IMG/VR virus record: IMGVR_UViG_3300018080_000105
Coordinates: 96,001 to 160,000 of that record
Origin: a virus
Length of the DNA: 64,000 bases
Reading direction: 5' to 3' (one strand)
In this document: positions 18,702 through 61,215 of the stretch, piece by piece
Numbering within the stretch: position 1 is the first letter of the stretch
Layout: the number at the start of each line of letters is the position of its first letter
Notes under the pieces: model-generated
What the model was told of the DNA's origin: nothing
The model's input: only the letters and a program-made list of their open reading frames with translations
Databases searched by the model: none
Program-made: the position numbers and the translations under genes

Positions 18702-19610
18702 ATGACCCGGCACATGGATATGCACGAAGGACCGCCGCCTCCACCCGACACCTACAACGTGGAGGCCTACTGCCACAACTGTGAATACGAAGGCGAAGCG
18801 GAAATCCCCAAAGGGACCAAGGTCGACGATGCCGACTGTCCTCGTTGTGGCTGTGATTGCCTGCAGGTCAAAGCCAAATTCACTGACGACCGTGTAGAAG
18901 CCGCACCCGCTGAAGAAGTTATCGAAGATTTTCTCCGCTGGCCGCCATCACAGCTCCGCGGCCCGATTAGCCCTGCGGGAGTCCCTGCCGATAACACTCC
19001 GCAGCCGCAGTGGTACTACTGCAACGACGACAGCACGCTACGCCATGCAGATCTGCAACCACCAACTGGCGACAGAACCTTTGCTGAAAGCATTCTGCGA
19101 GCAGCCGGCGGCACAATCCACCATCAGGTTCATCCGGATGGGCGGCACACGCTGAACGGGCGGGAAATCACACTTGACCAACTGAATACCGTCACCAGTG
19201 TTGATACGCCTCTTAGCGAGCGTGTCGGCATTCTAGGACAGATTGGTGTCATTCCGCCTGGTTCACAGACAAGCGGCGACGTTGTTGTCGGGCATTACCA
19301 CAACTCGCCACCACCGCCTCCACTGGGCAGAGGCCTCACTGCTGCGCCTATGGACGCTCACGGTGTTGACAACGTACCCTCGGGCGAAGGCACGCTCGCA
19401 GTAGGTTCTCCACAGGTACCGCCAGGGCTCCTGGACACCGCTACGATCGACACCACGACGCTCGACACATTGCTGTCACTTATTGACGAAGCGGCAGAGA
19501 TCGACCCAACCATGAGCGAGCCGAGTGTTGATCCTGACGAACCGGAACCCGTCAACACAGATCCACGACTGGGTGATCCTGATGGAGTACCCTGGGAAGA
19601 CTTTCGGTAA
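18702..19610 (+). CDS. Zn-ribbon + Pro/acidic low-complexity protein
   Basis: CHNC...CPRCGC N-terminus; follows previous gene by 3 nt. Confidence 0.65.
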   Translation: MTRHMDMHEGPPPPPDTYNVEAYCHNCEYEGEAEIPKGTKVDDADCPRCGCDCLQVKAKFTDDRVEAAPAEEVIEDFLRWPPSQLRGPISPAGVPADNTPQPQWYYCNDDSTLRHADLQPPTGDRTFAESILRAAGGTIHHQVHPDGRHTLNGREITLDQLNTVTSVDTPLSERVGILGQIGVIPPGSQTSGDVVVGHYHNSPPPPPLGRGLTAAPMDAHGVDNVPSGEGTLAVGSPQVPPGLLDTATIDTTTLDTLLSLIDEAAEIDPTMSEPSVDPDEPEPVNTDPRLGDPDGVPWEDFR

Positions 19611-19618
19611 ATAAGAAC
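19606..19618 (+). promoter_or_regulatory. GGTAAATAAGAAC motif copy
   Basis: exact 13-mer overlapping the stop of the plus-strand gene, abutting a hairpin. Confidence 0.55.
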
Positions 19619-19650
19619 GAGGGGCGGCCCGGCACGGCCGCCCTGTTCTT
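19611..19650. terminator. bidirectional intrinsic terminator between convergent genes
   Basis: GGGCGGCCG-gca-CGGCCGCCC 9-bp stem with T-rich tails on both strands. Confidence 0.7.
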
Positions 19651-19658
19651 TCAGCAGG

Positions 19659-20315
19659 CTACGCCCACTCGACAACGCGGAACTTGCCGTAGCGACCACG
19701 CCAGGTTCCCAGGCCAACAGCGGTGCCACCTTCCTCGAAGATGTTCTTCACCTGCTGTTCCTGGATCTGATTGTTCGGCAGCAATGTCAGCTGGAACTCC
19801 AGAGCCCACGGCAGTGGCAGCACTGGTCGCACTTTGGGGTTAGGCACGCCGTCCTTCAACCGGGCGACGTTCCGCAGGATGTAGGCCCCTGTGGTGGGGC
19901 AGGTCTCCGTGTCCGGATCAAAGCCAGAAAACACCAGCGGCTCGTCATCACGCGTCAGTACCAGGTTCTCCCCGTGGCGGGGATCCGTCGACATGATCGA
20001 CACGAAGCTCCCGCACGCTTCCGTGAACTTCTTGTACTTCCGGGAGTCGAGCAGCCTCTTGGGTGCGGAGTCCGTATTCTTGGCGGAGAGGAAACTCATT
20101 ACGTTGTTCGACGGCAGTACGAGAGTACATCCGTCTGATGCGAAGTAGAATTTCTGTGATGGGGTCAACTTGGTGTCGTTGTCCCCGGGGTAACGATCGA
20201 ACATCAGAGGCGTCAGCCCCTCCAGTTTCACCGTTCTGCATACTACGTTCCTTGTGCCCGCTTCTGATCGGGTCGTTGGAGGTGTTGATGGAGTTGTTGG
20301 TGATACAGTCGACAT
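19659..20315 (-). CDS. stand-alone Cas7/RAMP-fold protein (Vipr-like)
   Basis: RAMP beta1 VKLEGLTPLMFDRY, DGCTLVLPSNNVMSFL helix, C-terminal Gly-rich loop EEGGTAVGLGTWRGRYGKFRVVEW; GAGGA RBS; adjacent pentamer array. Confidence 0.8.
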   Translation of the reverse strand: MSTVSPTTPSTPPTTRSEAGTRNVVCRTVKLEGLTPLMFDRYPGDNDTKLTPSQKFYFASDGCTLVLPSNNVMSFLSAKNTDSAPKRLLDSRKYKKFTEACGSFVSIMSTDPRHGENLVLTRDDEPLVFSGFDPDTETCPTTGAYILRNVARLKDGVPNPKVRPVLPLPWALEFQLTLLPNNQIQEQQVKNIFEEGGTAVGLGTWRGRYGKFRVVEWA

Positions 20316-20381
20316 AAAACATTCCTCATTCTATGAGGTCCTTGTGAGTGTGCCAGGGACCATCCCCGGCACAAAGTAACC

Positions 20382-20973
20382 ATGCCTTTCCTCGCCATGA
20401 TGTGCCGACCATGGGTGAAAATGGTAGCCTTGCCTTGCCACGCCACGCCACTCCTCGCCCCGCCGGTCCTTGCCCTGCAGAGCCGCGCCGAGCCGTGATG
20501 ACTCAACGTAAAAGAACACGCGAGCCTTGCCTTGCCTTGCCACGCCCCGCCCAGCCTTTCCTTGCCTTGCAGAGCCGCGCCGAGCCGTGATGGCTCAATG
20601 TAAAAGAACATGCTTGCCTTGCCTTGCCACGCCCTGCCCAGCCTGTCCTTGCCCTGCAGAGCCGCGCCGAGCCGTGATGGCTCAATGTAAAAAACATGCT
20701 TGCCTTGCCATGCTATTCCGCGCCGTGCCCAGCCTTGCCGCGACTCGCCTTGCCGTGATGGCTCAACGTAAAAGAACATGCTTGCCTTGCCTTGCCGCTC
20801 CTTGCCTGGCCAGGCCATGCCTGTCCTCGCCTTACCCTGCAGAGCCCCGCCAGGCCATGCTGGCTCAACGTAAAAGAACATGCTTGCCTTGCCTTGCCCT
20901 TCCCTGCCACGCCCTGCCACTCCTCGCCTCTCCTTGCCATGCAGCGCCGTACCTAGCCGGGCCTGGTTATGCT
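20382..20973 (-). repeat. array of GGC-NN pentamer tracts separated by a conserved ~27-nt linker (candidate guide-RNA array)
   Basis: six tracts (20425-20494, 20522-20586, 20614-20673, 20700-20754, 20782-20856, 20884-20963) with 14, 13, 12, 11, 15 and 16 in-register pentamers, 62 of 81 starting GGC on the minus strand; linker GCATGTTCTTTTACGTTGAGCCATCAC x5; partial tract 20382-20406. Confidence 0.92.
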
Positions 20974-21207
20974 TCAATAGCACTCCCAAGGAGGAGCGTT
21001 CCCTAGTTCCCTGTGCGTGGGGAACCGGGCTCTCAGGCGTTCATAGATCTCACGGTACTTCGCAGCCCGCTCTTCGTTGGCACCCACTCCCTTCGGGGCC
21101 TCGTCGGATTCACAATACTCTGCGTACTCTTTCGACACTGCCTCGGCCAGTCCTGGCCTTGCATCAGCGTTGAATACGAATGGTGGCGCAGACGGATAGA
21201 TCGAAAT
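20974..21207 (-). CDS. 77-aa hypothetical protein with non-canonical (ATT) start, not in ORF track
   Basis: AAGGAGG at 21213-21219, 5 nt before ATT; charged helical-looking sequence; stop abuts the array. Confidence 0.45.
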   Translation of the reverse strand: MSIYPSAPPFVFNADARPGLAEAVSKEYAEYCESDEAPKGVGANEERAAKYREIYERLRARFPTHRELGNAPPWECY

Positions 21208-21259
21208 CAGGTCCTCCTTTCAGTGAAGGCCGGCGACATGCCGGCCGGGGTGGTTTTTC

Positions 21260-23107
21260 TTAGCTATCAGGCGTGAACAACATGTCCAGAATGCTCCGCA
21301 CCATCCGCCGATAGGCTTGGATGTAGCGGACTCTCCCCGTCGTAACATGCGGCTCAGGGATATACACAATCTCGCGAGTAGCCACCTCAAAATCCCGGTA
21401 CCACTCTTCCTTGTTCTCAGGCGTCAACAGTGGTTCGGGGCTGTTTCCGAAAGGAGAGGCCGCCCCGTAATTGCTGTGCTGACACAAGTGGTCTACGTAC
21501 GGCGTTACGTACGAATCCCGCGGCCCCTCCGGGTAGTCCTGCTCCGCCTGCCAAACCACGAACGCTCGCACAAATGGCAGCAACACATTGTGAAACTGCC
21601 GCGGGTAAATCGGCGTATCTCGCCGCCAGTCCCCGTCGATACCGTAATTGGCAGCGGTATCGCCCACGCCTGCTATAGAGAAGTATGTGGAGATGAACCG
21701 GCGAAAAGCAGACACTCCCGAAACAACCCGAGAATTTACGGCGTCATGTAGATTTTGCGACAACGCCAGTTCATGGAATGCCAGGCCGTCCTCGTCAGAT
21801 TGCGAAAGCATTTCATCCAGCATGGCATTCAGCAACCGATTACATACCCGCCCAGCGTTATCTACTTGCAATAGCTCAGCAGCAACCACAACCCCCGGGG
21901 CCAGGAATCGCTGCAACCAGAGGTACCAGGCCCCGCTTGTCGGGTCAGTCCCTTCTATACGCGGGTCTCCTCCTCCCGGCCACAATTGTTCGAGAGCAGG
22001 CCGCAATGTGTGGAACGCCCTTACCCCTTCCGCCGACGCACGCGCCTCCACATAAGACTGAAAATACGACAGAAAGCACTCGCCATCAGCGTAATACGTA
22101 TGCGTGACAAACAGCTCCAGACACGTATTCAACATACCCATCTGGTCTTCTGTCACTTCGTCCGCCTGTTGCCGGTAAGCGAACTCCAGGACCTGCATCA
22201 GCGCGTCTGCCCGCCACTCAATGAAATCTTCATTTTCCCAGTTTGGCGGCGGATTGTTACACTCACCATACATCGGAGCATCTGCGTGACTTGGAGAGCG
22301 GAGAGACGCGACAGGCCGGGCAGCCTCACGATCCACCATGTCATCGAACGCGTCCATTGCGGCTGCTCTCGCTTCCCTTTCCTGCGCTCGTTGCTCCTGT
22401 GCTGCCTGCAGTTCTTCAGCAACCCAATCCTGCGAAACAGGTTCCAGCCCATCACCTTCACGCTCAAACTGGCCCCAGTAATCACTCGCAGGAGTTGCGG
22501 CTGCCCCGGTTAGGGCCGTATGTGCCAACTCTGTCAGTTCTTCTGAAGACAGAATGTTCTGCGCGGCAAGCAGGGCCGCAGACACGACCAGAGATGCCTC
22601 TCGCCGTGTCTGCTCGTCCCCCTGTGTTAAGCCGTCCAAAACGAACTGCACCTCTTCAGGAATCTCTTCAGGCACAGGCTCCGGGGAATCCTCCGCCCCT
22701 TCAGTCATATCGAGGTGGCGTGTCACCTGCGACTGTCGACGATTATCCAACAGCTCCTGCGTCGTTTCCTCCAGCAGTTCTTTTTGAGCATCTGCCAGAT
22801 TCTTCTCGTCGATCTCCCGCCACTCTTCATGGTAGATAGTAGCATTGCCACCCGTTCCCAGGTCCCCGCCATACCGCCGCAGAAACTGGTGAGCCGTTTT
22901 CTCGCACTGAAACACAATAATCGGCGACCAGTTCAGCACCCCGGCGTCTGTGCGGATATCAGGATAAACGACCTGCCCCACCACCTCCCACTGCCCTGGT
23001 CCGATCGCTACCACCTTCAAACCCCAGACGTTGAGCACCTGGTACTGTGTAAGGCTTTGAACACGCAACCTGTACGGTTTCGGCGTCTCGAAGGACGGCG
23101 TCGTCAC
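21260..23107 (-). CDS. large acidic hypothetical protein
   Basis: 615 aa ORF coupled to tmk stop. Confidence 0.75.
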   Translation of the reverse strand: MTTPSFETPKPYRLRVQSLTQYQVLNVWGLKVVAIGPGQWEVVGQVVYPDIRTDAGVLNWSPIIVFQCEKTAHQFLRRYGGDLGTGGNATIYHEEWREIDEKNLADAQKELLEETTQELLDNRRQSQVTRHLDMTEGAEDSPEPVPEEIPEEVQFVLDGLTQGDEQTRREASLVVSAALLAAQNILSSEELTELAHTALTGAAATPASDYWGQFEREGDGLEPVSQDWVAEELQAAQEQRAQEREARAAAMDAFDDMVDREAARPVASLRSPSHADAPMYGECNNPPPNWENEDFIEWRADALMQVLEFAYRQQADEVTEDQMGMLNTCLELFVTHTYYADGECFLSYFQSYVEARASAEGVRAFHTLRPALEQLWPGGGDPRIEGTDPTSGAWYLWLQRFLAPGVVVAAELLQVDNAGRVCNRLLNAMLDEMLSQSDEDGLAFHELALSQNLHDAVNSRVVSGVSAFRRFISTYFSIAGVGDTAANYGIDGDWRRDTPIYPRQFHNVLLPFVRAFVVWQAEQDYPEGPRDSYVTPYVDHLCQHSNYGAASPFGNSPEPLLTPENKEEWYRDFEVATREIVYIPEPHVTTGRVRYIQAYRRMVRSILDMLFTPDS

Positions 23108-23748
23108 GCAAATGCTCCCTGCAACAACTCGTTGAAGCGCTCATTTTCCTGACACACCTCCAGCACTTTGTGGCTGACGATTTGTACGTCCTGGCTGGCG
23201 TCAACCGTCTCGTAGTGCAACGAATCAGCCCAGACCTGATAGCCCTCAGAAATCCCTTTGTGCCAATCTTCCCCGCGGCTCTCAAAGCGATCCTGTTTCA
23301 GCGTGGCGCCCCGCTGCGATGCTTTCCTCGCCATCTTGGTCTCGTGATCCAGGTGCAGGTAGATCGAGATATCGGGCTCCAGGGCAGGCTGACACTGCTC
23401 AATGAACTCGCTGTCCACGCCACCCATGTGACACTGGTACACATACGTCGACAGATCCCAGCGTGTCCCGATGACAATGGTGTTCTGTAACAGCAAATCA
23501 TTGACGTGCCGAGCCAGCGAGTGGCGAGCGGCCGAATAGAGCATCACCTGCTCAATAGGCTCACACGCAATGTTGGCGTCCACCACCAGTCGTCGACAAC
23601 CCTGGCCCAACGGGGTCGTACCGGGATCTTCTACCTGCGCTACCTCGCCACCCATGCCCTGCAGAAAATCATGCAGTCGCGTTGCGATCGTCGTCTTACC
23701 ACATCCGTCACCGCCTTCCAGGACGATGAACACACCTCTGTCAGTCAT
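23104..23748 (-). CDS. tmk: thymidylate kinase
   Basis: FIVLEGGDGCGKTT P-loop, EDPG, LYSAAR, TRWDLST (DR motif variant), PDISIYL; start trimmed to MTDRG. Confidence 0.9.
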   Translation of the reverse strand: MTDRGVFIVLEGGDGCGKTTIATRLHDFLQGMGGEVAQVEDPGTTPLGQGCRRLVVDANIACEPIEQVMLYSAARHSLARHVNDLLLQNTIVIGTRWDLSTYVYQCHMGGVDSEFIEQCQPALEPDISIYLHLDHETKMARKASQRGATLKQDRFESRGEDWHKGISEGYQVWADSLHYETVDASQDVQIVSHKVLEVCQENERFNELLQGAFA

Positions 23749-23762
23749 TGGTTTCTCCAATC

Positions 23763-23804
23763 GGTAAATAAGAACGGCCGGCACCCGGTGTCAGGTGCCG
23801 GCCG
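23763..23804 (-). terminator. intrinsic terminator whose U-tract is the reverse complement of the GGTAAATAAGAAC motif
   Basis: 11-bp stem CGGCCGGCACC/GGTGCCGGCCG (23775-23804) followed on minus strand by TTCTTATTTACC (motif 23763-23775). Confidence 0.7.
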
Positions 23805-25313: not shown

Positions 25314-25557
25314 CTGCACTCTCCATATCTTCCAGCACCCGCCTGAGATCAAGGGGGTCTGCATGTTCTGCTGTCGTATGCACCGCCAAGCCGAATACTC
25401 CCCGTTTTTCAGGAGTGATCATCAGCATTTTGCAGGCGGCAGCGACGTCATGTTCGACGTCAACTGCCTTCACTGCGTCCATCACGGCCACCGAAAGGGC
25501 AACCAGTGTCTTCTCGTTCTCGGTCACGTCAGACTCCAAGGAATTCAGCCACCGCAT
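25285..25557 (-). CDS. hypothetical protein
   Basis: operon-contiguous. Confidence 0.5.
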   Translation of the reverse strand: MRWLNSLESDVTENEKTLVALSVAVMDAVKAVDVEHDVAAACKMLMITPEKRGVFGLAVHTTAEHADPLDLRRVLEDMESADGESESDPG

Positions 25558-26689
25558 CAGCTGGCTCGCCGGCTTTATGGGCCAGGTCTGTCAGCCGTTC
25601 TCGCGGAAACGGTAAGCCACCAATCATCGCAAGGATCTTGATAGCGTCATCGCCGGCCGCGGGGTAAACACCAGGGAACACAACCGAGTCTTTGGGCGTG
25701 AGGATCCGGTTCATCATTTCGATGCCGTGATCGATCACGCCCGTTTTCACGGAATTTGGGCCGTCCCAGGCCGCTCCGCTAACCACGTAAATCATACCGG
25801 CCGTGGTACCCTTTGACAGGTCCACGCTGGCCAGCACGTTACGTTTCAGCTGGTCACGGATCGGAACGGAGATATCCGAAGGCTCATCCCATTTCTGCAC
25901 AGTAGTTGCCGCAAAGGCCACCACTCCGCTGTCCAGGATCTTGGCGAAGTCTGCCGGGTCAAATGTCGTCCCGCCTTCGTCCTCCGAATCTGTGCCCGCC
26001 AGACGATTGAACGTATGCAACAGCTTCGCTGTGCTCGCGTTCGATGCCGGCTTCTCATTGCGAGCAGCCACACGATCGCCATACAGCTCCACGAACCGCT
26101 CGTTGTCAATGAAGATAATCGGACTCAGGTTCAGGCCCGGCAGCTGACGCATGGAGTACAGCACGTTCTTGGCACTGCGCTGTCCCTCTGCGTTCTTGGG
26201 CATCGCCATGATGACACCCACACGATTTGGCTTCTTCTTGGCCCGCATGTACTGCTTGGCCACTTCCGCCGCTTTCGCATAAGCACCTGCACCCGTGCCG
26301 CCCGCCCCAGAAAGGCAGACAAACACGTGATCCACGTCATCGCCCCAACACCGCGAATACAGGTCGTAAATATCTTCGCCCTTGTCTTTCGCGATAGCTG
26401 CAGCGGCGGCCGGATCTTTGCCCACACCTTGCTGGTCACCAATGTCCAGCTTGGAAGCCTCGGGGAACGTCTTCAGCTCTGCCAGGTCAGCCACGGCTGT
26501 GTTGATCGCACAGATGCGGTTGTACCCGAGTTCCTTGAACGTGCTCACAATACGACCACCAGCCTGCCCCACGCCCACGAATGCGAACTTGAAACCAACC
26601 GGGTGATCAAAACTGTCAGGGATTGCGCTGGATGCTGGACTTTCCGGGCTCTCGGAAATATCTCCAATATCGAGTTCAAAGTCACTCAC
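25529..26689 (-). CDS. tubulin/FtsZ-family GTPase (PhuZ/TubZ/CetZ-like)
   Basis: FVGVGQAGGRI T1 loop, AINTAVAD, GVGKDP, SGAGGTGAG tubulin signature, FIDNE, FDPAD T7-like loop. Confidence 0.9.
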   Translation of the reverse strand: MSDFELDIGDISESPESPASSAIPDSFDHPVGFKFAFVGVGQAGGRIVSTFKELGYNRICAINTAVADLAELKTFPEASKLDIGDQQGVGKDPAAAAAIAKDKGEDIYDLYSRCWGDDVDHVFVCLSGAGGTGAGAYAKAAEVAKQYMRAKKKPNRVGVIMAMPKNAEGQRSAKNVLYSMRQLPGLNLSPIIFIDNERFVELYGDRVAARNEKPASNASTAKLLHTFNRLAGTDSEDEGGTTFDPADFAKILDSGVVAFAATTVQKWDEPSDISVPIRDQLKRNVLASVDLSKGTTAGMIYVVSGAAWDGPNSVKTGVIDHGIEMMNRILTPKDSVVFPGVYPAAGDDAIKILAMIGGLPFPRERLTDLAHKAGEPADAVAEFLGV

Positions 26690-58260: not shown

Positions 58261-59755
58261 CGAATCGACTCCTGGCAGGCCAGTTCTGCGTCCAACCACG
58301 CTCTGCGTAGTGCCGCTTCCTGTTCTCCGACTTCCGCCTGAAGTTCTTGTTCCAGCCGTCGTAACAGTCAACTACCTCGCCAACCTCCTTACCTGTGTCG
58401 GGCGAGATGCGACTCACACGGCCAGGCCCCTGCGCATCCATGATCTCCGACTCCCTCGCGTCTACACGGTAGAGAACCTGCAGTGGCTGGAAGTCAACAC
58501 CTGTCGCCCAAACATCCGTCGCAATGACGCGTTTGAGGCTCCCGGCCTCGAAATCCTGCCGCATCTCCTCTCGCCGCTCTGAGGTCGTCGGTACAAAGTT
58601 AGGTGGAAGATACCCATTTCGCTGAAAATATGCCAGATCATCGTCTTTCATTGCCCCATAACACAGCGCAAATTCAGGCAAATACTGCCAAAGCCTCACA
58701 GCATGCTCCACTGTCGCCACCAAGATCAGAATCTGCGTATCCGGATCCGGGTAATGCGTCCGCACATCCTGTGCAATCTGGTAGTTTCGCTGGTCATTCC
58801 GCCAGATTCCGTGCTTCATCCGCCGAGTGCCGTGCAGCCCCGACGCCGGATCGTTTGGCAAGTTGATCGACAGCCACCGCACATTGATTGGCACCACCAG
58901 CCCCAGCTCCACGGCTTCCTGATAGGTCAACTTGAAAATCTCACGACCAAAGAACAGCTCCAACTGAGCGTCCGCCCCGTCCATTCGCCCTTTGGGTGTC
59001 GCAGTGAACGCAAAGTTCCTCGACTGCCGCCAGGTCTCCCCCAGCACACGAGACGTCTTATCAGTCATCAACTGGTGAGCTTCGTCGCACAGTAGGAAAT
59101 CCGCGTCACCCTCAGCCCGGTGCGCAGAGCCGGCAGTGTACACGGTCACTCGCTCGCCAGACAATTTCTGTCCGCCGCCAATGTGCCCTACGTTGGGAAT
59201 CGTTCTCGATATCTGTCGCACCATCCTGGCCACCACATCCTTTGACCGAGTGACGATGTCAATACGGGCTCGTGGGTACAGATGGCAGATTGCCTCAATC
59301 AGGTGCGTTTTGCCAAAACCCATTGTCGCATTGATCAGGCCACATTGATTGCCTGCGATGTATTGCAGACACTCTTCCTGCTTAGCGCGGAACTCGATGT
59401 GTTGACGCACATTGTCCCAGTTAGGTTCATAGACGTCCGCGATCTCTTTCGCCGGACTCAGGTCGTGATACTCGACTCCAATGCCGCGGGCCTGCAAAGC
59501 CTCTACGATCGAAGTCAGGAAGCCGAAGCCAGTCACCAACCGCCCCTCCTCCATAGCGTACATCGTCCGTGTCTCCACAGACATTGTGTCACGCATACCG
59601 TCAGGGCCGTATTGCTGATGGCCTCTGAGCAACGTTTTGTGCTCGTACGACAGAAGGGGGTGTAACAGCTGTGCGACATTCAACGGCAGCGGGCTCTGAC
59701 CGTCAGGACTCAAATCAATCAAAGTCCCGGATCGCCGCACAATCAGGTTGTTCAT
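58253..59755 (-). CDS. SF2 DEAH helicase (UvsW-like)
   Basis: ATMGFGKT, LCDEAH, FTATP, TGVDF, QGPGRVSR. Confidence 0.9.
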   Translation of the reverse strand: MNNLIVRRSGTLIDLSPDGQSPLPLNVAQLLHPLLSYEHKTLLRGHQQYGPDGMRDTMSVETRTMYAMEEGRLVTGFGFLTSIVEALQARGIGVEYHDLSPAKEIADVYEPNWDNVRQHIEFRAKQEECLQYIAGNQCGLINATMGFGKTHLIEAICHLYPRARIDIVTRSKDVVARMVRQISRTIPNVGHIGGGQKLSGERVTVYTAGSAHRAEGDADFLLCDEAHQLMTDKTSRVLGETWRQSRNFAFTATPKGRMDGADAQLELFFGREIFKLTYQEAVELGLVVPINVRWLSINLPNDPASGLHGTRRMKHGIWRNDQRNYQIAQDVRTHYPDPDTQILILVATVEHAVRLWQYLPEFALCYGAMKDDDLAYFQRNGYLPPNFVPTTSERREEMRQDFEAGSLKRVIATDVWATGVDFQPLQVLYRVDARESEIMDAQGPGRVSRISPDTGKEVGEVVDCYDGWNKNFRRKSENRKRHYAERGWTQNWPARSRFDA

Positions 59756-60264
59756 GTATGTTCCTCAGCATCAGTAAGCCGTGGTGCTCTGATCGTAGGC
59801 AACACGGAAACAACATCAAACGTACCGTACGTCTCTCCCTCTTTACGAAACGGGGAGATTCCTTTGTACGTGCCCATCACTTCCAACAAGTTTGTGAAGG
59901 CATCAATGCCCATGTCCTTCGGCAGGACGGCGTTCACCCGGATTTCCGTCCCCGGGCGAAACGCCTCGTGTAGTGCGTATCGGGCTCGTTTCTTACCGTT
60001 GCCAGGAGTAACAATCCTTTTCCACTCTTTCAACGGGCCGTCGACCGGGGCTGCCCAGGCGACGTTCTTCGCGCTCTTTCCATGACGTCCCACTACTGTA
60101 GCCGCGAATTCCAGATTCTCCCTCCACCACGACGGGAGAAACTGGATGCGACCTTGGGAGTCACGAGGCATGCGATAAATCACGCCTTTGCCTCGGCGAA
60201 CCGGTTTCTTGGCGAAACCAAGACACGGCTGTGTGAAACGTAACCTGATCGTCACTTCCTGCAT
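59752..60264 (-). CDS. second, compact Cas7/RAMP-like protein
   Basis: EVTIRLRFTQPCLG beta1, RDSQGRIQFLPSWWRENL, HEAFRPGTEIRVNAVL, Gly-loop GTYKGISPFRKEGETYGTFDVV. Confidence 0.6.
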   Translation of the reverse strand: MQEVTIRLRFTQPCLGFAKKPVRRGKGVIYRMPRDSQGRIQFLPSWWRENLEFAATVVGRHGKSAKNVAWAAPVDGPLKEWKRIVTPGNGKKRARYALHEAFRPGTEIRVNAVLPKDMGIDAFTNLLEVMGTYKGISPFRKEGETYGTFDVVSVLPTIRAPRLTDAEEHT

Positions 60265-60279
60265 CGGTGGTCATCCTGA

Positions 60280-61215
60280 CTAAGCCGGGCTGGGGAATCC
60301 CTTCACGTGGTCACGAAAGGCCTGCACCTCCGCGCCCTTCAGCAGGCTTTCTGCATCAAACAACTCCAGCTTTTGAGGGTTGTTGATCAACAACGACTGC
60401 TGCCAATTCCGGATAAAGTACACCAGAAAGGCACGCGTCGCCAGTAAGTCTCCCTTAATGCCGCCGCCGGCTGCTCGCCATCGCCGCCAGAGAAAATTCT
60501 CTGGCCGCTCATAACTCGCGTTGCTCGGCTCACGACCCTTCCAGGCGCGCAGAACAGTACAAAACCGATCCCGCCGAGAGATATCCCGCGGGGTCTTCAC
60601 ATCACCAGCTGCGTACCGCGGCAGAATGCCCAGGTACGATCGCAGACGAGCCAATCTGTTCGGTCTCTTCGGATCCACAAACCAACGAGGATCCAAGATC
60701 ATCGCAATCAACATCGCCATGCTCTCGTGGTGCACGTTAGGAATAAACCGCCAACGGGCATAAGCCGGGTGGCGCGTCAGAAACCGCATCGAAGATGTGG
60801 CTGTCCCTTGGGCGCTCGCAATCTCTGCTGCAATTGCGTAAGCAGGCATGTCCAGCTTTGTCAGTGGATGCCAGCCTCCGAGAACCGCAGCAAGTCGCAG
60901 TTGCCGCATTCGCCAGAGCACTTTCTCCGGATCGGAGAGTTCTTCTGTATCTGCGACGCATTTTCGCGGAGACGCTATTTCAACACGACTTTTCTTCAGC
61001 TCGACGAGCTGGTGATAAAGATTCGTGATCAAACGAGCATTTCCGTGGGTTCCGAGTACGCGAACGTGAGGATCGCCATACGCAGAACACTCTGTCAACA
61101 ATTCTGCCAGATCACCGGAAAAGGGCGAAGGTCGTTCGACACCAATAGCCTGCCACACAGTGCCATGACTGTCGGTGTGAAGTCTCAAAACACTTTGTTC
61201 CGGGACAATTTTCAC
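60280..61215 (-). CDS. IS110-transposase/Tas(Nop)-like protein with degenerate RuvC domain
   Basis: HPAY..WRFIPNV..SMAMLIAMILDPRWF..RLRSYLGILP matches the IS110 C-terminal/Nop helical motif; N-terminal strand/helix order fits RuvC-DEDD but the acidic catalytic residues are mostly absent. Confidence 0.65.
   Translation of the reverse strand: MKIVPEQSVLRLHTDSHGTVWQAIGVERPSPFSGDLAELLTECSAYGDPHVRVLGTHGNARLITNLYHQLVELKKSRVEIASPRKCVADTEELSDPEKVLWRMRQLRLAAVLGGWHPLTKLDMPAYAIAAEIASAQGTATSSMRFLTRHPAYARWRFIPNVHHESMAMLIAMILDPRWFVDPKRPNRLARLRSYLGILPRYAAGDVKTPRDISRRDRFCTVLRAWKGREPSNASYERPENFLWRRWRAAGGGIKGDLLATRAFLVYFIRNWQQSLLINNPQKLELFDAESLLKGAEVQAFRDHVKGFPSPA

What the first reader, a model, noticed from the sequence alone, without database searches (positions are those of the whole stretch)
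19659..20973. Stand-alone Cas7/RAMP protein with a GGC-NN pentamer array: candidate non-CRISPR RNA-guided system
Seen: a 218-aa RAMP-fold protein (Gly-rich loop GLGTWRGRYGKF) whose same-strand upstream 590 nt is strictly 5-periodic. There are six tracts of 11-16 pentamers, 62 of 81 being GGC-NN, with GGA (10), TGC (5), GGT (2), AGC (1) and GTC (1) variants. A near-identical U-rich 27-nt linker separates them, and a terminator follows the gene. No cas1/2/3/5/6 is nearby. Known: Cas7 polymerises on RNA with fixed periodicity. Inference: each tract is a guide RNA whose constant triplets bind one subunit each while the variable dinucleotides read a gapped target, plausibly in competing phages or the host. 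From memory this matches the recently reported VIPR (Vipr + GGY/NN vrRNA) architecture, which I cannot verify here. The frequent GGA/TGC triplets and the linker may define a variant.
Basis: partly seen in the sequence, partly recalled or inferred. Interest (0 to 1): 0.95.

Follow-up and report, generated by a model that had tools for sequence, protein, structure and literature searches.

The report
Phage VIPR locus: Vipr plus six vrRNAs
A 184-kb uncultured phage carries a genuine example of the VIPR system described in 2026 (a lone Cas7-like protein plus six guide RNAs built from GGC-NN five-base repeats), so it is a real RNA-guided system of a kind already known, and I could not find what its guides target.

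Summary
On the minus strand, 20963-20425 holds six tracts of 11-16 pentamers. I count 82 units: GGC 62, GGA 10, TGC 5, GGT 2, AGC 2, GTC 1. Near-identical U-rich linkers of 22-27 nt separate them. A 218-aa gene (20315-19659) follows, then a terminator hairpin.

The protein models confidently as a minimal Cas7-type RAMP. Its family profile matches the solved SUSP1 Vipr protein over the thumb arginine and G-loop. All 80 related viral loci fetched carry same-strand GG-N-NN tracts beside the gene. In them GG and C are conserved and NN is variable.

The window lies in an IMG/VR virus record with no Cas1 and no other pentamer array.

Features particular to this clade:
- no conserved accessory (vap) gene;
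- a constant GGCAA-GGCAA-GG 3' end plus a short U-rich tail, with no supported folded tail;
- Thr where SUSP1 has the G1-reading Asp177;
- here, six tandem guides, three of which share their first five or six units.

Searches under the 1-nt-skip rule found no natural target and no self-target. This scan has already noted VIPR-type loci in at least 268 genomes. Verdict: new member of a known kind, modest interest.

The parts
19659..20315 (-). vipr gene, 218 aa: minimal Cas7-type RAMP. Thumb hairpin at about residues 145-166 with R163. G-loop at residues 201-212 with T204, W205 and R206.
19621..19644 (.). Two-way terminator hairpin between vipr and the convergent gene 18702-19610
   Evidence: Consensus scan: 8-9 pairs, followed by a T-run on both strands.
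20884..20963 (-). vrRNA 1 repeat tract, 16 units. NN read-out: CC TA AC GC AT AA GA GA GT AG GT AG AG, then AA AA AA.
20782..20861 (-). vrRNA 2 repeat tract, 16 units. NN read-out: AT CT GG TC AG AA GA CA AT CT CA AA GC, then AA AA AA.
20700..20754 (-). vrRNA 3 repeat tract, 11 units
20614..20673 (-). vrRNA 4 repeat tract, 12 units. Its first five units have the same NN as vrRNA 6. It differs from vrRNA 5 at three NN positions over the 12 shared units.
20522..20586 (-). vrRNA 5 repeat tract, 13 units
20425..20494 (-). vrRNA 6 repeat tract, 14 units
20495..20883 (-). Span that holds the five U-rich linkers or tails (20862-20883, 20755-20781, 20674-20699, 20587-20613, 20495-20521), 22-27 nt each, together with tracts 2-5 between them
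   Evidence: The motif is unique to this array in the genome. The predicted hairpin GAGCC/GGCUC across the linker-tract boundary is no better than shuffles.
20377..20396 (-). Short four-unit remnant (GGCGA GGAAA GGCAT GGTTA, then CTTT). It resembles the clade's 3' handle and may be the relic of an older guide next to the gene.
   Evidence: relatives keep one guide ending 20-40 nt before the start codon. Inference only.
20328..20356 (-). Weak sigma-70-like promoter match between the array and the gene
   Evidence: 9 of 12 positions, and the count equals that in shuffles. Not evidence of function.

Best explanation
This is a VIPR (Viral Interference Programmable Repeat) locus of a large uncultured phage. 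It consists of the vipr gene and, upstream on the same strand, six tandem vrRNA genes.

By analogy with the SUSP1 system, the array is transcribed and cut or terminated in the U-rich linkers into RNAs of roughly 80-110 nt. One Vipr protomer binds each pentamer and the protomers form a helical filament. Each GGC triplet is flipped out and held by the thumb arginine and the G-loop. The NN dinucleotides are left exposed to pair with double-stranded DNA that matches NN-x-NN-x (one base skipped per unit). This forms an R-loop triplex that blocks transcription of the bound gene, most likely in a competing phage, prophage or satellite of the same host.

In this clade the last two or three units (GGCAA GGCAA GG..) and the U-rich run are constant. 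They probably act as the 3' handle or cap rather than as guide.

Shown here: fold, homology, array anatomy, family-wide linkage of gene and array, viral context. Inferred from the literature: transcription, processing, filament formation, the 1-nt skip rule, repression. Unknown: the targets.

For: Homology. The family profile hits PDB 36pp_D 'SUSP1 Vipr protein' at E 5.2e-5. hhalign against the Felixounavirus Alf5 homologue gives 95% probability, E 3.4e-8. The alignment places R163 on thumb R138, and W205 and R206 on G-loop W178 and R179, which are RNA-contact residues in the cryo-EM paper.

Array. 82 in-phase units, GGC in 62 of them. It is the only such locus in 184 kb.

Family linkage. All 80 viral loci encoding relatives have same-strand tracts within about 2.5 kb of the gene. 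Over 197 tracts, position 1 is G in 96%, position 2 is G in 98%, position 3 is C 86% / A 7% / T 5%, and NN is variable at 3.7-3.9 bits of a possible 4. The same holds in the Planctomycetaceae and Pirellulales MAG loci and in the cultured Burkholderia phage vB_E436.

Scaffold selection. Guides 4 and 5 differ at 3 of 24 NN positions, 3 of 27 linker positions and 0 of 36 scaffold positions.

Context. IMG/VR virus record, CheckV 89%. No Cas1. No self-target of 80% or more under any skip rule, as the VIPR paper reports for its systems.
Against: There are no expression or binding data.

Only the C-terminal 51-53 residues align to a characterised Vipr at sequence level.

SUSP1's D177, which reads G1 and whose alanine mutant is dead, is Thr204 here, invariant in the clade alignment.

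GGA units occur although the SUSP1 pocket excludes purines at position 3.

No structured or pseudoknotted tail is supported, and no Rfam family or hammerhead matches.

No conserved accessory gene was found.

No natural target was found: IMG/VR exact 9-10-unit windows of guides 1, 2, 4 and 6; one metagenome and one genome-collection scan; 401 Planctomycetota genomes at up to 3 mismatches.
Confidence: 0.9

Rival explanations
1. The RAMP protein and pentamer RNAs do form a complex, but in this clade it works differently from SUSP1 VIPR. It might bind RNA, use another skip register, or regulate host or phage genes rather than silencing rival elements.
For: The G1-reading Asp is replaced by Thr. 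GGA units are tolerated. There is no vap gene. The 3' end is constant and built from repeats rather than a folded tail. No 1-nt-skip target was found in any collection searched.
Against: The thumb Arg and the G-loop Trp-Arg are kept. The published survey already allows relaxed units such as NNNGG within VIPR. No self-match appears under skip 0-3 either. Failure to find targets is expected if the rival elements of an uncultured host are unsampled, and my collection scans needed 9-10 perfect units.
Confidence: 0.07
2. The repeat region is protein-coding (ORF 20243-20989, 248 aa, Gly/Ala/Arg/Gln-rich) and is not an RNA gene.
For: One frame is open across the whole array. Gene callers in public data have translated such arrays as N-terminal extensions of homologues P0001, P0115 and P0117.
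Against: The period is 5, not 3, so the frame rotates through the units. Conservation follows the pattern G-G-C-N-N rather than codon positions. Tracts occur upstream or downstream of the gene, with varying lengths and phases. The open frame is expected in G+C-rich GGCNN sequence.
Confidence: 0.01
3. The pentamers are a structural DNA or RNA element (for example G-quadruplex-prone GGNNN runs or a recombination hot spot) unrelated to the neighbouring protein.
For: Runs of GG spaced by three bases could in principle form two-tetrad quadruplexes (my own reasoning, not tested).
Against: Strict co-occurrence with the vipr gene, always on its strand, in 80 of 80 viral loci and in the three further relatives' loci examined (two MAGs, one marine contig). 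There is no other such tract in 184 kb. The protein has the RNA-binding fold of Cas7 and the G-loop of a proven vrRNA binder.
Confidence: 0.02

Closest known systems
VIPR systems, with type II VIPR of Escherichia phage SUSP1 as the characterised example (bioRxiv 10.64898/2026.04.26.720920, 10.64898/2026.04.26.720927, 10.64898/2026.10.15.759431; PDB 36pp)
   Same: Phage-encoded lone minimal RAMP with thumb and G-loop. The thumb Arg and the G-loop Trp-Arg are kept. Same-strand guide genes made of 11-16 GGY-NN pentamers, followed by a constant 3' part. No cas genes or CRISPR array. No self-targets.
   Different: Only about 35% identity, and only over the last 51 residues. Thr replaces Asp177. GGA units are tolerated. 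The 3' part is constant repeat units (GGCAA GGCAA GG..) plus a 22-27-nt U-rich run rather than a pseudoknotted tail. No vap1-like neighbour. Six guides lie in one upstream tandem array and none downstream. The host is probably Planctomycetota, not Enterobacteria.
VIPR array variants listed in the first VIPR paper (staggered arrays, hammerhead-interspersed arrays, single-vrRNA systems; seven types, six vap genes)
   Same: A multi-guide tandem array with short spacers. Because there are seven types but only six vap genes, a vap-less type is possible.
   Different: No hammerhead or other Rfam family in the spacers. The guides do not overlap by 1 nt; discrete linkers separate them. I could not assign a type, because the paper's supplementary tables and figures are not held.
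Cas7 backbone subunits of class 1 CRISPR effectors (Csm3, Cmr4, type VII Cas7)
   Different: The step is 5 nt with three bases sequestered, not 6 nt with one flipped. The guide is itself repetitive. There is no repeat-spacer array, no Cas5, Cas6, Cas10 or Cas1, and no adaptation.
Burkholderia phage vB_E436 (PQ789831.1) gene vBE436_00039, annotated hypothetical
   Same: Same Vipr clade (52% identity over 89% of the protein). It has one 15-unit GGC/GGA-NN tract ending GGCGA GGCGA GGGCT just upstream of the gene.
   Different: A single upstream guide in a 45-kb phage of a cultured host. It is useful as an experimental stand-in for the clade.

Membership tests
VIPR (Vipr + vrRNA) | Homology to a characterised Vipr protein | tested here: met
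   Profile vs PDB 36pp_D SUSP1 Vipr: E 5.2e-5. hhalign 95%, E 3.4e-8. The match covers the C-terminal 51-53 residues only.
VIPR (Vipr + vrRNA) | Tandem YNNGG / GGY-NN pentamer tracts (at least 4 units, typically 9-16) in the non-coding DNA flanking vipr, on its strand | tested here: met
   Six tracts of 11-16 units; 64 of 82 units are GGY.
VIPR (Vipr + vrRNA) | GGY conserved and NN hypervariable across related systems | tested here: met
   197 tracts in 81 loci: G 96%, G 98%, C/T 91%; NN entropy 3.7-3.9 of 4 bits away from the 3' end.
VIPR (Vipr + vrRNA) | Invariable 3' tail after the repeat tract | tested here: met
   Near-identical 22-27-nt linkers and a clade-wide constant GGC[AG]A GGC[AG]A GG.. 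end. Whether the tail is structured is a separate question: no supported fold.
VIPR (Vipr + vrRNA) | Minimal locus outside any CRISPR-Cas context, usually viral | tested here: met
   IMG/VR virus record. No Cas1 in 184 kb. Neighbours give no Cas family.
VIPR (Vipr + vrRNA) | Accessory vap gene (typical, not universal) | tested here: not met
   No protein cluster other than Vipr itself is shared by more than 10 of the 81 loci, and none includes this locus. The paper says 'typically', so this does not exclude membership.
VIPR (Vipr + vrRNA) | vrRNAs are expressed and co-purify with Vipr | not testable with these tools
   Needs small-RNA sequencing and a pull-down.
VIPR (Vipr + vrRNA) | Guides match natural DNA targets under the 1-nt skip rule (at least 80% of NN), with none in the own genome | tested here: inconclusive
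   No self-target. No external target beyond chance. The collection scans needed 9-10 perfect units, so weaker real targets would be missed.
Type II VIPR (SUSP1 / P. fulva clade) | SUSP1-type GGY-reading residues (D177, W178, R179, R138), a pseudoknotted tail and a vap1 neighbour | tested here: not met
   R138, W178 and R179 are kept as R163, W205 and R206, but D177 is T204. No fold of the tail was supported; pseudoknots themselves were not tested. No conserved neighbour. So this is a different clade or type from SUSP1.
Class 1 CRISPR-Cas | Repeat-spacer array plus Cas5/Cas6/large subunit and an adaptation module | tested here: not met
   No Cas1. No Cas families among the neighbours. The repeats are 5-nt units, not 25-40-nt repeats with spacers.

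The most novel reading that the evidence does not exclude
This large Vipr clade has at least 617 protein clusters and spans Planctomycetota, Burkholderiales, methanotrophs and others. It could be a VIPR type that has not yet been characterised. Its guides would be capped by constant repeat units (GGCAA GGCAA GG + U-run) instead of a folded tail, G1 would be read by a threonine, purines would be tolerated at position 3, and no accessory protein would be needed. It might therefore differ in filament nucleation or termination, or in targeting register, from the SUSP1 paradigm.
Probability: 0.2. Interest if true: 0.45.

Novelty: new member of a known kind. Interest (0 to 1): 0.3.

Why it matters
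VIPR is a very recent discovery and only Enterobacterial and Pseudomonas examples have been studied at the bench. This locus extends it to a roughly 200-kb phage whose closest Vipr relatives lie in Planctomycetota MAGs. It also documents a large vap-less clade with its own 3' handle and a changed G-reading residue.

That is useful for annotation: public gene calls translate these arrays as bogus N-terminal extensions. It is also useful for choosing diverse Vipr proteins to test. It does not change the picture of how such systems work, and the biologically interesting part, what the six guides silence, remains open.

Tried and rejected
Pfam gave nothing for the protein. PHROGs gave only an unnamed family, phrog_4652. 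Rfam at E up to 1 gave nothing over 19000-22000, so there is no hammerhead between the guides.

The linker hairpin GAGCC-AUCAC-GGCUC is no more stable than shuffles (z from +0.9 to -1.1) and is present at only three of five boundaries, so I do not claim a structured tail. The linker motif is not a general promoter or terminator of the phage, because it is unique to the array.

Target searches, all negative or at chance level:
- own genome at skip 0-3, with full and trimmed guides;
- 80 related vipr loci;
- IMG/VR exact windows of guide 6 (units 1-10), guide 1 (4-13), guide 2 (1-9) and guide 4 (1-9), all with no hit;
- guide 2 (5-13): one 18/18 in-frame hit in L105, but only 3 of 14 flanking positions match, so it is chance;
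- metagenome scan with guide 1 (3-11): 24 hits, best full-guide score 25/32;
- genome collection with guide 2 (3-11): 11 hits, best 24/32. By my rough estimate the hit numbers are about what chance gives, and repeated peptides among them reflect protein families rather than targeting;
- guide 1 (13 units, up to 3 mismatches) in three MAGs that carry vipr and in 401 Planctomycetota genomes: none.

The second RAMP-like protein of this phage (59752-60264) shows no sequence relation to Vipr (hhalign probability 0.6%), so I do not count it as part of this system.

The supplementary tables of the VIPR paper are not held, so no type could be assigned.

Full report
**What is in the sequence.**
The minus strand of 19659-20315 encodes a 218-aa protein that ends in the glycine-rich loop GLGTWRGRYGKF. 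Directly upstream on the same strand, 20963-20425 consists of six tracts of 16, 16, 11, 12, 13 and 14 pentamers. Of the 82 units, 62 begin GGC, 10 GGA, 5 TGC, 2 GGT, 2 AGC and 1 GTC.

The tracts are separated by linkers of 22, 27, 26, 27 and 27 nt that are almost identical and U-rich in the transcript. The small differences are 82 rather than 81 units, and that the 5-nt phase holds inside tracts but is reset by each linker (three phases are used).

A G+C-rich hairpin with a T-run on both strands lies at 19621-19644, right after the stop codon. Between the last tract and the start codon there is a four-unit remnant (20396-20377) that looks like the 3' end of an older guide.

The array is not a chance feature. 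Every run of four or more GGYNN units on either strand of the 184,021-bp genome lies in this locus, and the linker word occurs nowhere else.

**The protein.**
Pfam finds nothing. A search of the large protein collection finds at least 617 related clusters, all unnamed. With an alignment of 34 of them (A1), AlphaFold2 gives a confident model: mean pLDDT 88.4, pTM 0.81.

The family profile also hits one solved chain by sequence: 36pp_D, 'SUSP1 Vipr protein', E 5.2e-5. A profile comparison with the homologue in Felixounavirus Alf5 gives 95% probability, E 3.4e-8. The aligned stretch is the last 51-53 residues: the base of the thumb, the second helix, the G-loop and the last strand.

Using the residue roles given in the cryo-EM paper, thumb R138 corresponds to R163 here, G-loop W178 to W205 and R179 to R206. 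D177, which hydrogen-bonds the first G, corresponds to T204, and this threonine is invariant in the clade alignment.

**The gene-array link is a family property.**
A scan of IMG/VR found 149 viral stretches encoding relatives, and 80 loci were fetched. Every one has same-strand GG-N-NN tracts within about 2.5 kb upstream or downstream of the gene.

Over 197 tracts the composition is G 96%, G 98%, C 86% (A 7%, T 5%), followed by two variable positions. The median tract has 16 units. NN entropy is 3.7-3.9 bits of a possible 4 at the 5' end and in the middle, but falls to 2.2-3.1 bits in the last three units. These are mostly GGCAA or GGCGA, followed by GG and a short U-rich run. This clade therefore has a constant 3' end built from repeat units. 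The GGCAA GGCAA GGCAA + GCAUGUUCUUUUAC ends in the window are its local form.

No protein other than Vipr is shared by more than 10 of the 81 loci, and none of the shared ones is present here. The commoner neighbours are phage recombination and replication genes: YqaJ, ERF, AAA_24, DUF669 and a helicase.

**Context.**
The window is part of an IMG/VR virus record of 184 kb, with a CheckV completeness estimate of 89%. Near the locus lie a thymidylate kinase and a tubulin/FtsZ-like gene. There is no Cas1 in the genome.

The closest genomic relatives of the protein are in a Planctomycetaceae MAG (71% identity), a Pirellulales MAG (61%) and other Planctomycetota. More distant ones (47-50%) are in Paraburkholderia, Candidimonas, Castellaniella, methanotrophs and others. 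One cultured phage, Burkholderia phage vB_E436, has a 52%-identical copy with a 15-unit tract just upstream.

**What it is.**
The VIPR papers describe this architecture. It is a phage-borne minimal RAMP (Vipr) with vrRNAs of 9-16 GGY/NN repeats and a constant 3' tail. One protomer binds per repeat. The GGY bases are sequestered by the thumb and G-loop, and the NN bases pair with double-stranded DNA while skipping one target base per unit. The result is transcriptional silencing of rival mobile elements. Seven types are described, with varied array layouts and relaxed repeat consensus in some.

A later survey recovered 99 VIPR-like clusters of intergenic regions. The locus meets every membership feature that sequence analysis can test (see Membership tests). 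I therefore file it as a VIPR system with confidence about 0.9.

It is not of the SUSP1 (type II) clade. The differing features are Asp177 replaced by Thr, no vap1-like neighbour, and no supported folded tail. I could not assign a type because the paper's supplementary data are not held.

**How it most likely works here.**
This part is inferred. The array is transcribed on the minus strand, possibly together with the upstream genes, since the first tract starts 11 nt after the stop codon of a 54-codon ORF. Six guides are released by cleavage or termination in the U-rich linkers. Vipr polymerises on each.

The 9-13 variable units read the target, and the constant terminal units with the U-run cap the filament. 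Guides 4, 5 and 6 share their first units: the NN read-out TC GC TC AG AA, with AA instead of AG at the fourth unit in guide 5. Guides 4 and 5 differ at only three positions over their 12 shared units, all of them NN positions. Their linkers differ at 3 of 27 positions and the GGC scaffold at 0 of 36. This fits recent duplication, with selection keeping the scaffold and with related guides perhaps covering variants of one target.

**Targets.**
No guide matches the phage's own genome better than shuffled guides do under skip 0, 1, 2 or 3. This agrees with the published absence of self-targets.

I found no convincing external target. The searches and their outcomes are listed in full under Tried and rejected. 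The collection scans demand 9-10 perfect consecutive units, so real targets with scattered mismatches would be missed. The rival elements of an uncultured host may also simply be unsampled.

**Rivals.**
A coding reading of the array is excluded by the 5-nt period and the G-G-C-N-N conservation pattern. However, public gene calls do translate such arrays as false N-terminal extensions (P0001, P0115 and P0117). A purely structural repeat is excluded by the strict, strand-specific association with the gene. The only rival worth keeping is that this clade departs from SUSP1 in register, substrate or purpose (about 7%).

**Novelty and score.**
The kind is known from several 2026 preprints, and this scan has already noted VIPR-type loci in at least 268 genomes. 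The same stretch was also flagged in another window of this genome. This is a new member. Its clade-level peculiarities (repeat-built 3' handle, Thr for Asp177, no vap) may or may not already be covered by the published types. Interest 0.3.

Noticed in passing
window 59752-61215 (-): The same phage encodes a second small RAMP-like protein (59752-60264) beside a TasR/IS110-like protein (60280-61215) in its replication operon, as earlier notes of this scan report. hhalign shows no sequence relation between that RAMP and the Vipr family (probability 0.6%), and no pentamer array lies near it.
   Followed up: partly
window 25529-26689 (-) and 23104-23784 (-): A tubulin/FtsZ-family GTPase (Pfam Tubulin, E 6.7e-11) and a thymidylate kinase (E 5.7e-30) lie 3-6 kb from the VIPR locus. 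A phage tubulin fits a large phage.
   Followed up: no
window 20377-20396 (-): Four degenerate units (GGCGA GGAAA GGCAT GGTTA, then CTTT) lie between the sixth guide and the start codon. This is where close relatives keep their single upstream guide's 3' end. It is possibly a relic guide.
   Followed up: partly
L012:6775-7578, L019:6764-7567, L071:6667-7467, L078:5053-5853 and six more loci: In ten related viral loci a roughly 266-aa protein with no Pfam match sits next to vipr, and in the four loci named here it lies between two vrRNA tracts. It is a candidate accessory (vap-like) gene of a sub-clade and is absent from this window.
   Followed up: partly
proteins P0001, P0115, P0117 (homologues from public gene calls): Their N-terminal extensions (for example ...GKARQGFFTW...) are translations of upstream GGC-NN arrays. 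Public annotation therefore mis-calls vrRNA DNA as coding sequence.
   Followed up: no
window 18702-19610 (+): The convergent 302-aa neighbour has an N-terminal four-cysteine zinc-ribbon-like motif (CxxC ... CxxC) and a Pro-rich, acidic tail, with no Pfam or PHROG match. It is not conserved next to vipr in relatives.
   Followed up: no
L105:7443-7468 (-), IMGVR_UViG_3300045988_140603: A perfect 18/18 match to units 5-13 of guide 2 under the 1-nt skip rule, in frame with a coding sequence (…SKDQMLQKA…). Only 3 of 14 flanking guide positions match, and by my rough estimate about one such hit is expected by chance in a collection of this size.
   Followed up: yes
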